Below are positions 20,301 through 23,300 of a stretch of 64,000 bases of DNA, in pieces. The stretch is taken from NCBI RefSeq assembly GCF_000026545.1, contig NC_011601.1; one strand, 5' to 3'. This DNA is from Escherichia coli O127:H6 str. E2348/69. GTDB lineage: Bacteria; Pseudomonadota; Gammaproteobacteria; Enterobacterales; Enterobacteriaceae. The position numbers are program-made. Position 1 is the first letter of the stretch. Each line of letters opens with the position of its first letter.

Positions 20301-23300
20301 TCTGGTGGATCATCTCCAATTGTTCTGGTGAAAGGGTGCTAAAGAAGGCTTCACCACCTATCCACACTGAGGTATTTGTCAGGTAGTTAACCATTGTCAG
20401 ATATCTTGCCTGCTCATACAGTTTTTGCCCTTGCAGCACTGAAATTGGGTTTTCTACGCCGTCAATAACGCCCTGGGTTAATGCGGGATAAACTTCGCCT
20501 AATGGCATGGGAGTTGGTGTTGCCCCCATCGCCTGAATGGCTTTTATTTGCATGACGTTATTAGGAACGCGAATTTTTAAACCTGCGAGATCGTCAACGG
20601 TGCGAATGGGTTTTTTCGAAATAATCTGTCGAGTGCCATAGAGATAATTATTCATTACCACATGAATTCCCTTTTTCTTCAGACTTTCATTTTTTTGTTT
20701 AAACCAGTCGCTTTCATATATTTTGAACAGTTTTTGCGGATCGTCAGTCAGATACGGTCCAAACAAAATCCCCAAATCGGGTTCATAATCGGCAAGAAAA
20801 GCCACATCACTCAAGGTTATGACATTCATGCCCATCATGGCTTGCTCGGTGACATCCTGTTTTGATCCCAATTGGGAGCTGGGATAGAGCGCAAGTGTTA
20901 TTTCGCCATTACTTTTTTTATTTAATAGGTCTGCCCAGTAACGCATGACCACATCCAGGGGTTCTCCAGGGTTATTTTCATAGGCAACTTTTATTGAAAT
21001 AGGTTTTGCCTGGATTATTGACGGTAAAAAAAGGTACTGACAGTAATTAGCATCGCTATTATTTTGCTCATCTTTACTTACTCCATGCTAAGGAAATAAA
21101 ACTCCAACATTGTTGTCGGGAGTGAAACCTTATGAAAAAGCAGTCATTACTGAAAAGTAGTCAGCGAATAGCAGAATGGCTGCAGATGTATCATAAATTC
21201 GTGCACCGGGTAATACTTTGCTGCTTTTAATCGGTTTTTAATGCATTTTTTGATTGTATATCTTAAAGTTATGTAATGCATGACGTTACAAGGAACACCC
21301 TCTGATGAGTTTAGTTATCGCAGATAAGATCTCTTATTCGGTTGATGATTTATTAAAAATAAAATCATTAATTTGGCTGCGGTCATTTTTAATTGTCAAT
21401 ACAGATAAAAACTAAGTGTTGACGCAGAATGGTGGTATCCATTAAATTTATTTAGTGCTGATTTAATACATTTGCTGAACGTATAATTCATGCTGATGTT
21501 AAAAGAAAGCCGTCATTCACTAAATAACTTGTTCGGCAAGGAAATCAGAGAGTAACGGATGATTCGTTACAACGGGGAAAGGTAGTAAATATTCACATGG
21601 TGAATTTGTTATCAACTTGAAAACTTATTTTACTGGGTTCCTTCTGATCATGTGAGTGAACGCAGTGATTAATGATTAACGTTAAGTGCTAACCAGAGCG
21701 CTTTTTATGAAGTTAAATTAATAATATCCATTATTTATGAATGAGGAAGCCTGTTTATTATATGGAAATACTTTTAACAATTTTAATTCTTACGTTGGTA
21801 GTATCATTAACCAGCGTGCTTACACGTCTGTCTCCTGTCCAGATACCACTTCCTTTAATCCAGATTGCCGCTGGTGCAGTACTGGCCCAGCCTATATTTG
21901 GTCTGCATGTGGAATTCAATCCTGAACTTTTTCTCTTATTGTTTATACCACCCCTGTTGTTTGCTGAAAGTTCAAAAATACAACCTAAAGAATTGATCAA
22001 GCACAGCCGGGAAATTATCAGCCTGGCACTTGTGTTGGTACTAATCACTATTTTTGGTGTCGGCTATGTGATTCATTTACTCTTACCGAATGTGCCGCTC
22101 ATCGCTGCTTTCGCATTAGCCGCCGTGTTGTCGCCTACCGATGCCGTGGCGTTGCTGGGGATTGTCGGGAAAGGGCGTATCAGCAAAAACATCCAGGAAG
22201 TGCTCGAAGGCGAAGCGTTGATGAATGATGCTTCCGGCCTGGTGGCGTTGAAATTTGCTGTTGCAGTGACGATGGGAACGATGGAATTCAGCGTTCATGG
22301 CGCAACCATTGCGTTTTTTGTCGTTGCGTTGGGCGGTATTGCCGTGGGGATCGCTGTTACCTGGTTATATGGTAAAGGGCTGCTGTTGATCAGCCGATAT
22401 GCTCACGATGAACCTTCCATTCAGATTGTATTGATGCTTCTGTTGCCGTTTATTGTTTATCTGGTTGCGGAACATTTTGGCTTATCTGGCATTCTTGCCG
22501 CTGTCGCCGCGGGGTTAACAACCAGTCGCATTGGCGTAGTCCACCACGCGCCTATTCGCCTGAGAATTAAAGCTAAAAGTAGCTGGTCGATGCTTGAATA
22601 TGTCTTTAACGGCATGGTGTTTCTGATTTTAGGCTTACAACTGCCGGGCATTATTTCGGAATCACTGATCCGTGCAGAAAACGATCCACTGGTGGACACC
22701 GGATCGCTGCTCCTTAATGTCATTTGGATCTACCTGGCGTTAATGGTTGTGCGCCTGGGCTGGCTTTGGCTGATGCGTCTGTATAGCCGTAAACGACCCG
22801 GCAAACATCCGATGCTGTTTGCTGGATATAAAACGCGTCATATGCTGCTGGCGACCTTTGCGGGGGTGCGCGGAGCTATCACGCTTGCGGGGGGGCTTTC
22901 TATCCCGTTATTGCTGCCGGATGGCACACCTTTTCCCGGGCGTTACTTGCTGGTATTTCTCGCCACAGGTGTGATCCTCTTTTCGCTGGTTTGCGGCATT
23001 ATTATTCTGCCGTTATTACTGGGGAAAAATGTGGGGATTTTCAGCGATAACCGACAAAAAGAAGAGGAAGCTGCCGATCTGTTTATGGCTAAAATGGCCA
23101 TACTGAGTGTGCAAAAGACCGAGCAACGTTTGCTGCGCGCCAGAACAGAAAACCTCGATAACGAGTTGATTATGGAAACGGGGGCCAGAGTTATCGGTTA
23201 TATGCGACATAGTGAAGAGGATATGTCGCCTAATGATAATTCCCTGCATATGCAGCGTGCGAAGCTGGAAAGAACATTTAATCTGGCGGCGTTAAATGCC

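What the first reader, a model, noticed from the sequence alone, without database searches (positions are those of the whole stretch)
21026..21032. dctP-like gene split by a -1 frameshift in an A7 homopolymer
The start codon (21071) with a GGAG RBS encodes a signal-peptide-like MSKIIAMLITVSTFF and then hits a stop. The mature-domain frame (…PSIIQAKPISIKVAYENNPGEPLD…) is offset by one base. A single extra A in the run at 21026-21032 would restore an intact 323-aa precursor with an IQA-KP cleavage-like site. Such tracts are classic sites of slipped-strand variation and of sequencing or assembly error.
Basis: seen in the sequence. Interest (0 to 1): 0.5.

Follow-up and report, generated by a model that had tools for sequence, protein, structure and literature searches.

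The report
Frameshifted sugar-acid transporter binding-protein gene
In E. coli strain E2348/69 the gene for the periplasmic binding protein of a TRAP transporter has lost one base from a run of eight, which cuts the protein off after 18 residues; this is an ordinary strain-specific pseudogene, although the same loss has happened independently in other lineages.

Summary
The window is the E. coli E2348/69 chromosome. On the minus strand an ATG at 21071, preceded by a GGAG, opens MSKIIAMLITVSTFFYRQ* and stops. The rest of a DctP-family TRAP binding protein continues one base out of frame to 20101. The break is at the T7 run (plus-strand A7, 21026-21032).

The frameshift is real, not an assembly error. 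Three RefSeq E2348/69-derived assemblies and a near-identical relative carry it.

Of 858 complete E. coli genomes with this locus, 821 have CCC-T7 (in frame, Leu14), 26 have CC-T8 (in frame, Phe14) and 9 have CC-T7 (frameshift).

Haplotype comparison identifies the ancestor. An intact CC-T8 relative differs from E2348/69 by two SNPs in 3.8 kb, while CCC-T7 haplotypes are at least 14 SNPs away. The same loss occurred at least three times independently.

No alternative start, slippery heptamer or stimulatory RNA structure rescues the gene. RefSeq annotates a 281-aa product without a signal peptide and does not flag it as a pseudogene.

The operon sits where K-12 has lgoT, next to lgoR and lgoD, so the lost function is probably L-galactonate/L-fuconate uptake.

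This is ordinary and of low interest.

The parts
20101..21071 (-). DctP-family TRAP transporter substrate-binding protein gene, inactivated by a 1-nt deletion (pseudogene). The intact alleles encode 323 aa.
   Evidence: Searches give the sequence and frames. Searches show intact 323-aa orthologues. TIGR00787 scores 179.5 bits (cut-off 175.05) and PF03480 gives E 1.4e-65 on the intact orthologue.
21026..21032 (-). Homopolymer: T7 on the coding strand, A7 on the plus strand. This is the site of the T8->T7 deletion.
   Evidence: One search shows the run. The closest intact haplotype, L032, has T8 here with only 2 SNPs in 3.8 kb.
21033..21034 (-). CC on the coding strand immediately 5' of the run. 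The majority and ancestral allele has CCC followed by T7, so a C->T change at the junction first lengthened the run from 7 to 8.
   Evidence: The divergent O26:H11 (B1-type) allele has CCC-T7.
21015..21071 (-). Residual 18-codon ORF plus stop, MSKIIAMLITVSTFFYRQ*. It holds most of the signal peptide and nothing else.
21081..21084 (-). GGAG Shine-Dalgarno sequence, 9 nt upstream of the ATG.
   Evidence: read directly from the sequence.
20101..20946 (-). The 281-aa CDS that RefSeq/PGAP annotates (WP_001271106.1), starting at an internal ATG (MRYWADLL...). It lacks the signal peptide and the first ~20 residues of the mature fold, and it is not flagged as a pseudogene.
   Evidence: The alignment to 4ovt begins at residue 24 of the intact protein.
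19564..20037 (-). TRAP small permease (DctQ), intact.
   Evidence: PF04290.
18296..19567 (-). TRAP large permease (DctM), intact.
   Evidence: TIGR00786 at 400.7 bits.
21741..23414 (+). CPA1-family Na+/H+ antiporter, transcribed divergently from the TRAP operon. PGAP starts it at 21762.
   Evidence: TIGR00831 at 526.5 bits.
23585..24490 (-). GntR-family regulator, orthologue of K-12 LgoR (88% identity).
24629..25651 (+). lgoD, L-galactonate 5-dehydrogenase orthologue (94% identity to K-12).

Best explanation
This is a genuine, heritable loss-of-function frameshift. In the lineage leading to E2348/69, the binding-protein gene of a TRAP transporter carried the minority allele CC-T8 within its signal-peptide codons. 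Strand slippage during replication removed one T, giving T7 (plus-strand A8 to A7). Translation from the normal ATG now ends after 18 residues. The downstream frame has no start codon upstream of residue 41 (GTG at 20952), so no exported binding protein can be made. TRAP transporters depend on their periplasmic binding protein, so the still-intact DctQ and DctM permeases are left without function. Shown here: the sequence, its reproducibility, the allele census, and the T8 ancestry. Inferred: replication slippage as the mutational mechanism, loss of transport, and L-galactonate/L-fuconate as the substrate. The substrate inference rests on the operon's position in place of lgoT beside lgoR and lgoD.
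For: The frame break and stop codon are. Three RefSeq E2348/69-derived assemblies carry the identical allele; one of them equals the whole window. Allele census among 858 complete genomes: CCC-T7 821, CC-T8 26, CC-T7 9. No appreciable remainder is left for other tract lengths. Haplotype distances over 3.8 kb: window to L032 (CC-T8) is 2 SNPs, and L032 shares the variants at 21583, 21498, 21322, 19861, 19172 and 18946 that mark the E2348/69-type haplotype. Window to any CCC-T7 haplotype is 14 or more. Independent recurrences: L024 (CC-T7) is identical to L028 (CC-T8) apart from the T. L017 and MS20657/N17 (CC-T7) are 5-8 SNPs from A37 (CC-T8). There is no in-frame start upstream of GTG 20952. 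The 4ovt alignment shows that residues 24-42 belong to the folded domain. In the larger collection the 281-aa truncated product is listed in 589 blocks, against 36,279 and 4,140 blocks for the two intact proteins, a similar frequency of about 1%.
Against: No reads were available, so a mixed A7/A8 population in culture cannot be excluded. The three RefSeq records all derive from one strain, and I could not establish how independent the sequencing was. Loss of function is inferred, not measured. A low level of frame restoration by transcriptional slippage on U7 or by single-tRNA -1 slippage cannot be ruled out from sequence. The direction of change (T8 to T7, rather than T7 to T8 reversion) rests on parsimony: CC-T8 lies on many diverse haplotypes, and each CC-T7 sits at a tip beside a CC-T8. 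Recombination could blur this.
Confidence: 0.86

Rival explanations
1. Sequencing or assembly error: the true sequence has A8 and the gene is intact.
For: Homopolymers are the classic site of such errors. In the wider collection, CCC-T6 alleles occur in GenBank-only long contigs. One of them, L022, also has a T6->T5 deletion in dctM within 3.8 kb, which is typical of long-read homopolymer error.
Against: CP059840.2, LT827011.1 and LT903847.1 all have A7. A natural relative 3 SNPs away (L020) has it as well. The same allele is fixed in an unrelated clone of six complete genomes.
Confidence: 0.03
2. The deletion removed a C from the CCC of the majority CCC-T7 allele, not a T from the homopolymer.
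For: CCC-T7 is the allele in 821 of 858 genomes and in the divergent O26 strain. Strain 7/2, which has CCC-T7, matches the window over 1401 bases apart from one gap.
Against: Over 3.8 kb every CC-T7 haplotype lies next to a CC-T8 haplotype (0-8 SNPs) and far from CCC-T7 haplotypes (13-22 SNPs). L032 (CC-T8) carries the E2348/69-type SNPs. Among the 821 CCC-T7 genomes no other indel allele was left over in the census.
Confidence: 0.06
3. The tract works as a contingency (phase-variable) switch that turns sugar-acid uptake on and off reversibly. Under this view the OFF state in E2348/69 and in a blood/CSF clone is selected rather than neutral decay.
For: The run lies in the 5' coding region. T8 and T7 alleles occur on haplotypes 0-2 SNPs apart, and the OFF allele arose at least three times. 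An IS1-mediated deletion inactivates the same gene in PK5074.
Against: An 8-nt A/T run is short for high-frequency switching (general knowledge). OFF alleles make up only about 1%. Only two tract lengths were seen in curated genomes. No T9 and no mixed populations were observed.
Confidence: 0.08
4. Recoding: programmed -1 ribosomal frameshifting or transcriptional slippage on the U7 run restores a useful amount of full-length protein.
For: A -1 shift after the two UUU codons would yield exactly the CC-T8 protein (...TFFLPSIIQA...), as read from the sequence. U-rich runs can slip.
Against: In the zero frame the heptamer is C UUU UUU or U UUU UAC, not a canonical X XXY YYZ. The 86 nt downstream fold no better than shuffled sequence (z 0.10). 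About 99% of orthologues are in frame, so the arrangement is not conserved.
Confidence: 0.04

Closest known systems
Homopolymer-slippage frameshift pseudogenes in E. coli and other enterobacterial pathogens
   Same: A single-base loss in a mononucleotide run inside a coding region. It is strain- or lineage-specific, with intact alleles in close relatives and intact neighbouring genes.
   Different: The run had first been lengthened from 7 to 8 by a C->T substitution at its edge. The same loss then recurred at least three times on different haplotypes.
DctP-family TRAP solute-binding proteins; closest solved structures PDB 4ovt and 4o8m
   Same: The restored protein scores above the TIGR00787 cut-off, matches PF03480, and aligns over residues 24-322 with 4ovt (E 6e-147) and over 2-322 with 4o8m (E 9e-81). 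It is followed by dctQ and dctM.
   Different: In this strain the gene is broken. The RefSeq product name 'C4-dicarboxylate' is generic. From memory, 4ovt and 4o8m were solved with L-fuconate and L-galactonate, but I could not verify this in the held library.
E. coli K-12 lgoT-lgoR-lgoD L-galactonate locus
   Same: It has the same chromosomal position between tsr and opgB, with LgoR at 88% and LgoD at 94% identity.
   Different: The MFS symporter gene lgoT is replaced by a TRAP dctPQM operon plus a CPA1 Na+/H+ antiporter gene in 858 of 5426 complete genomes.
E. coli YiaMNO (2,3-diketo-L-gulonate TRAP transporter)
   Same: Both are TRAP systems in E. coli.
   Different: They are only distant paralogues. 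DctQ scores 35.9 bits against a cut-off of 260, and DctM scores 239.7 against 800 for the YiaM and YiaN equivalogs.

Membership tests
DctP-family TRAP substrate-binding protein (TIGR00787 / PF03480) | Profile match above the curated threshold | tested here: met
   On the intact orthologue (323 aa), TIGR00787 scores 179.5 bits against a cut-off of 175.05 and PF03480 gives E 1.4e-65. The window's mature-domain frame has the same residue sequence as that orthologue.
DctP-family TRAP substrate-binding protein (TIGR00787 / PF03480) | N-terminal Sec signal peptide joined to the mature domain | tested here: not met
   Intact alleles read MSKIIAMLITVST(L/F)FLPSIIQA|KP. In the window the signal-peptide frame ends at codon 19 and is one base out of frame with the mature domain.
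DctP-family TRAP substrate-binding protein (TIGR00787 / PF03480) | Encoded next to DctQ and DctM membrane subunits | tested here: met
   dctQ lies at 19564-20037 and dctM at 18296-19567, immediately downstream.
Frameshift pseudogene | Reading frame broken relative to intact orthologues, with no alternative start that preserves the product | tested here: met
   847 of 858 genomes are in frame. The first start codon in the mature frame is GTG at 20952, codon 41.
Frameshift pseudogene | The lesion is reproducible rather than a sequencing artefact | tested here: met
   Three RefSeq E2348/69-derived assemblies and the relative L020 have the same allele. No reads were examined.
Frameshift pseudogene | Absence of functional protein or transport | not testable with these tools
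   This needs proteomics or growth and uptake assays.
Phase-variable contingency locus (simple-sequence repeat) | Repeat tract in the 5' coding region, with length differences between near-identical strains | tested here: met
   T8 and T7 alleles occur on haplotypes 0-2 SNPs apart.
Phase-variable contingency locus (simple-sequence repeat) | High-frequency, reversible switching within a clonal population | not testable with these tools
   This needs read-level or culture data. The 8-nt run and the ~1% frequency of the OFF allele argue against it.
Programmed -1 ribosomal frameshift site | Canonical X XXY YYZ slippery heptamer in the zero frame | tested here: not met
   The zero-frame codons are ACC UUU UUU UAC. 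Tandem re-pairing fails at CUU or at UUA.
Programmed -1 ribosomal frameshift site | Downstream stimulatory structure, and conservation of the two-frame arrangement | tested here: not met
   The downstream fold has z-score 0.10. About 99% of orthologues use a single frame.
L-galactonate / L-fuconate TRAP system | Genomic linkage to the lgoD signature gene and close similarity to characterised binding proteins | tested here: inconclusive
   Linkage to lgoR and lgoD is shown. PMC5507952 states that lgoD is the signature gene and that a TRAP system with dual L-fuconate/L-galactonate specificity exists. The similarity to 4ovt is high, but its ligand is recalled from memory only.
L-galactonate / L-fuconate TRAP system | Demonstrated ligand binding or transport | not testable with these tools
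   This needs thermal-shift or ITC measurements, or growth assays.

The most novel reading that the evidence does not exclude
The C->T change that turned CCC-T7 into CC-T8 created a mutational hot spot in the signal-peptide codons. Lineages carrying it repeatedly switch off, and perhaps back on, uptake of L-galactonate/L-fuconate. The OFF state would be favoured in some pathogenic lineages (EPEC E2348/69; a blood/CSF clone). That would make it a low-rate contingency switch for a gut carbon source rather than neutral decay.
Probability: 0.08. Interest if true: 0.4.

Novelty: new member of a known kind. Interest (0 to 1): 0.15.

Why it matters
The main value is for annotation and for users of the strain. 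E2348/69 is the prototype EPEC strain and is used in human challenge studies. Its RefSeq records present this gene as an intact 281-aa protein, when it is really a pseudogene that leaves a TRAP transporter without its binding protein. If the substrate inference is right, E2348/69 lacks the only transporter at its lgo locus and should be impaired in L-galactonate/L-fuconate use. This is relevant to metabolic models and gut-colonisation experiments. The recurrent T8->T7 loss also gives a small, clean example of a point substitution raising the indel mutability of a coding tract.

Tried and rejected
1. I looked for the original genome paper (Iguchi et al. 2009) to see whether this pseudogene was listed. 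It is not held, and full-text searches did not find it.

2. I looked for Vetting et al. 2015 and for any paper citing 4OVT or 4O8M to confirm their ligands. The paper is not held and the hits were irrelevant. The ligands are therefore given from memory only.

3. A search for lgoR, lgoD and TRAP found nothing on this E. coli system.

4. I first assumed the intact allele would be CC-T8. The exact 83-mer matched only 26 genomes. This led to the alignment showing that CCC-T7 is the majority allele.

5. I tried to find the closest relative of E2348/69 among complete genomes with a 25-kb query. The next-best genomes are only about 99.0% identical and equidistant, so this was uninformative. The answer came instead from contigs that encode the exact CC-T8 protein.

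6. I considered short 41-mer allele-specific queries. I dropped them because BLAST's low-complexity filter would mask a T7-T9 run and leave no seed. I used 70-mers and exact-identity counts instead.

7. Programmed frameshifting was rejected: there is no canonical heptamer and no downstream structure.

Full report
**Identity of the window.** A 1401-base query around the finding matches three RefSeq chromosomes at 100%. They are E. coli E2348/69 (NZ_CP059840.2), 'EPEC E2348/69 variety 2' (NZ_LT827011.1) and its derivative EPEC1 (NZ_LT903847.1). The whole 64-kb window equals the reverse complement of CP059840.2:4168264-4232263.

**The observation.** On the minus strand a GGAG (21084-21081) lies 9 nt before an ATG at 21071. 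The ORF reads MSKIIAMLITVSTFFYRQ and stops at 21017-21015.
- The T7 run is at 21032-21026, which is A7 on the plus strand, as stated.
- The frame containing ...LPSIIQAKPISIKVAYENNPGEPLD... is one base out and runs to the stop at 20101.
- Its first possible start is GTG at 20952, so no product of that frame can carry the signal peptide.

**What the gene is.** The intact orthologue has 323 aa (strain 7/2).
- It scores 179.5 bits on TIGR00787 dctP (cut-off 175.05) and gives E 1.4e-65 on Pfam DctP PF03480.
- It is followed by intact dctQ (19564-20037) and dctM (18296-19567; TIGR00786 at 400.7 bits).
- The best solved relatives are 4ovt (E 6e-147, aligned from residue 24 to 322) and 4o8m (E 9e-81).
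- Residues 24-42 align with the crystallised domain, so the 281-aa ORF annotated by RefSeq (ATG at 20946, WP_001271106.1) lacks both the signal peptide and part of the fold. RefSeq does not flag it as a pseudogene.

**Is it an error?** The three RefSeq E2348/69-derived records agree. A distinct genome, GCA_901482685.1 (L020), is 3 SNPs from the window in 3.8 kb and carries the same allele. I had no reads, so a minor A8 subpopulation cannot be excluded. An assembly artefact is nevertheless very unlikely.

**Allele census.** The locus is present in 858 of 5426 complete E. coli genomes. I counted exact matches of 70- to 83-base allele-specific queries.

| Coding-strand allele | Effect | Genomes |
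|---|---|---|
| GTACCC-T7 | in frame, ...STLFLP... | 821 |
| GTACC-T8 | in frame, ...STFFLP... | 26 |
| GTACC-T7 | frameshift | 9 |

- Three further genomes match only partially. One of them, PK5074, has an IS1-mediated deletion.
- These counts leave essentially no room for other tract lengths.
- The nine frameshift genomes are the three E2348/69 records plus MS20657 (blood, Finland) and N17, N24, N39, N47 and N64 (N17 is from CSF). MS20657 and N17 are identical over 40 kb. The other four N strains were not fetched, so I only infer that they belong to the same clone.
- The divergent O26:H11 genome has CCC-T7, so that allele is ancestral.

**Which base was lost?** The majority allele is CCC-T7, so the frameshift could in principle be a lost C rather than a lost T. 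Complete genomes did not settle this, because the closest relatives over 25 kb are only about 99.0% identical.

I then fetched contigs that encode exactly the CC-T8 protein or the truncated product. I compared 3.8 kb around the tract.
- L032 (GCA_964054655.1, CC-T8, intact) differs from the window by two SNPs plus the one T.
- L032 shares the variants at 21583, 21498, 21322, 19861, 19172 and 18946 that mark the E2348/69-type haplotype (window and L020).
- CCC-T7 haplotypes are 14-19 SNPs from the window.
- L024 (CC-T7) is identical to L028 (CC-T8) apart from the T.
- L017 and MS20657 (CC-T7) lie 5-8 SNPs from A37 (CC-T8).
- These three groups are 9-14 SNPs from each other.

The simplest reading has two steps. 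A C->T substitution at the junction lengthened T7 to T8 and changed Leu14 to Phe. A T was then lost from T8 at least three separate times.

**Wider collection.** The truncated 281-aa product is listed in 589 blocks, against 36,279 for the CCC-T7 protein and 4,140 for the CC-T8 protein of the same mature sequence. That is about 1%, as in the complete genomes. Some of those contigs carry CCC-T6. One of them, L022, also has a T6->T5 deletion in dctM within the same 3.8 kb. At least part of that class is therefore probably long-read homopolymer error, and I do not count it as biology.

**Could the gene still be expressed?** A -1 shift after the two UUU codons would produce exactly the CC-T8 protein. 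Three points argue against this.
- The zero-frame context (ACC UUU UUU UAC) is not a canonical X XXY YYZ site.
- The 86 nt downstream fold no better than shuffled sequence (z 0.10).
- About 99% of orthologues are in frame.

Low-level leakage through transcriptional slippage on U7 is possible in principle (general knowledge) but is unmeasured. I conclude that the gene is a pseudogene. TRAP permeases need their binding protein (established knowledge of the family), so the transporter is most likely non-functional.

**Context and likely function.**
- In K-12 the order is tsr-lgoT-lgoR-lgoD-opgB.
- In the window the order is tsr, the TRAP MQP genes, a CPA1 Na+/H+ antiporter gene (TIGR00831 at 526.5 bits), then lgoR (88% identity), lgoD (94% identity) and opgB.
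- The MFS galactonate symporter is thus replaced by a TRAP system plus an antiporter in about 16% of E. coli genomes.
[quoted passage not shown] It also states that a TRAP transporter with dual L-fuconate/L-galactonate specificity has been characterised.
- From memory, 4ovt and 4o8m were solved with L-fuconate and L-galactonate. I could not verify this.
- The RefSeq name 'C4-dicarboxylate' is therefore probably generic, and the lost function is probably L-galactonate/L-fuconate uptake. This step is inference.

**Verdict.** The finding is real and correctly interpreted. It is an ordinary lineage-specific homopolymer frameshift in a published genome. The only mildly unusual points are two: a substitution first lengthened the run, and the same loss then recurred in at least three haplotypes. 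Interest is low.

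Noticed in passing
L010 (NZ_CP072802.1, strain PK5074) about 3488-4215: An IS1 copy abuts the sequence CCC-T7-ACCG exactly. The 5' end of dctP, the Na+/H+ antiporter gene, lgoR and part of lgoD are missing. This is an independent inactivation of the same gene, ending at the same tract. RefSeq again calls the 281-aa WP_001271106.1 there.
   Followed up: partly
window 20101-20946 (minus strand); also L005 and L006 at 20126-20971: RefSeq/PGAP annotates the frameshifted gene as a normal 281-aa CDS from an internal ATG and does not flag it as a pseudogene. This holds in the three E2348/69-derived records, MS20657, N17 and PK5074.
   Followed up: yes
window 18296-23414 compared with K-12 L040 5362-6723: The TRAP dctPQM operon plus a CPA1 Na+/H+ antiporter gene occupy the place of lgoT between tsr and lgoR. 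This arrangement is present in 858 of 5426 complete E. coli genomes, including B2 strains and O26/O145/O103 STEC.
   Followed up: partly
window 61700-62347 (plus strand): gpmB is annotated as a pseudogene with an internal stop in E2348/69 (CP059840.2:4169917-4170564).
   Followed up: no
L019, L021, L022 and L023 near position 1410; L022 also about 2200 bases downstream of the tract, in dctM: CCC-T6 frameshift alleles occur on a 7/2-like haplotype in GenBank-only assemblies. L022 also has a T6->T5 deletion in dctM, which suggests long-read homopolymer errors rather than real alleles.
   Followed up: partly
window about 18162 (inside tsr, 16589-18253 plus strand): MS20657 and N17 carry a 9-bp in-frame insertion (GCTGCTGTT on the strand shown in the alignment) in tsr relative to E2348/69. 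Annotated tsr lengths vary between 1656, 1665 and 1674 bp among strains.
   Followed up: no
window 1560-2114 (kptA); L005 39095-39648; L008 39082-39635: kptA (RNA 2'-phosphotransferase) is intact in E2348/69 but annotated as frameshifted in MS20657, N17 and 2015C-4136CT1.
   Followed up: no
window 8973-10432: The window holds remnants of a type I restriction endonuclease gene and a truncated GntR-family gene with an internal stop, next to symE. The neighbouring segment is variable between strains: a 3'-5' exonuclease gene in E2348/69, against a restriction endonuclease plus BrnA antitoxin in MS20657. This variable segment accounts for about 1300 differences in the 24-kb comparison.
   Followed up: no
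L033 (insertion at the position aligned to window 21672) and L009 (window 21391-21399): Small indels occur in the dctP-antiporter intergenic region: a 16-bp insertion in L033 and a deletion of about 10 bp in O26:H11. The promoter region is therefore also polymorphic.
   Followed up: no
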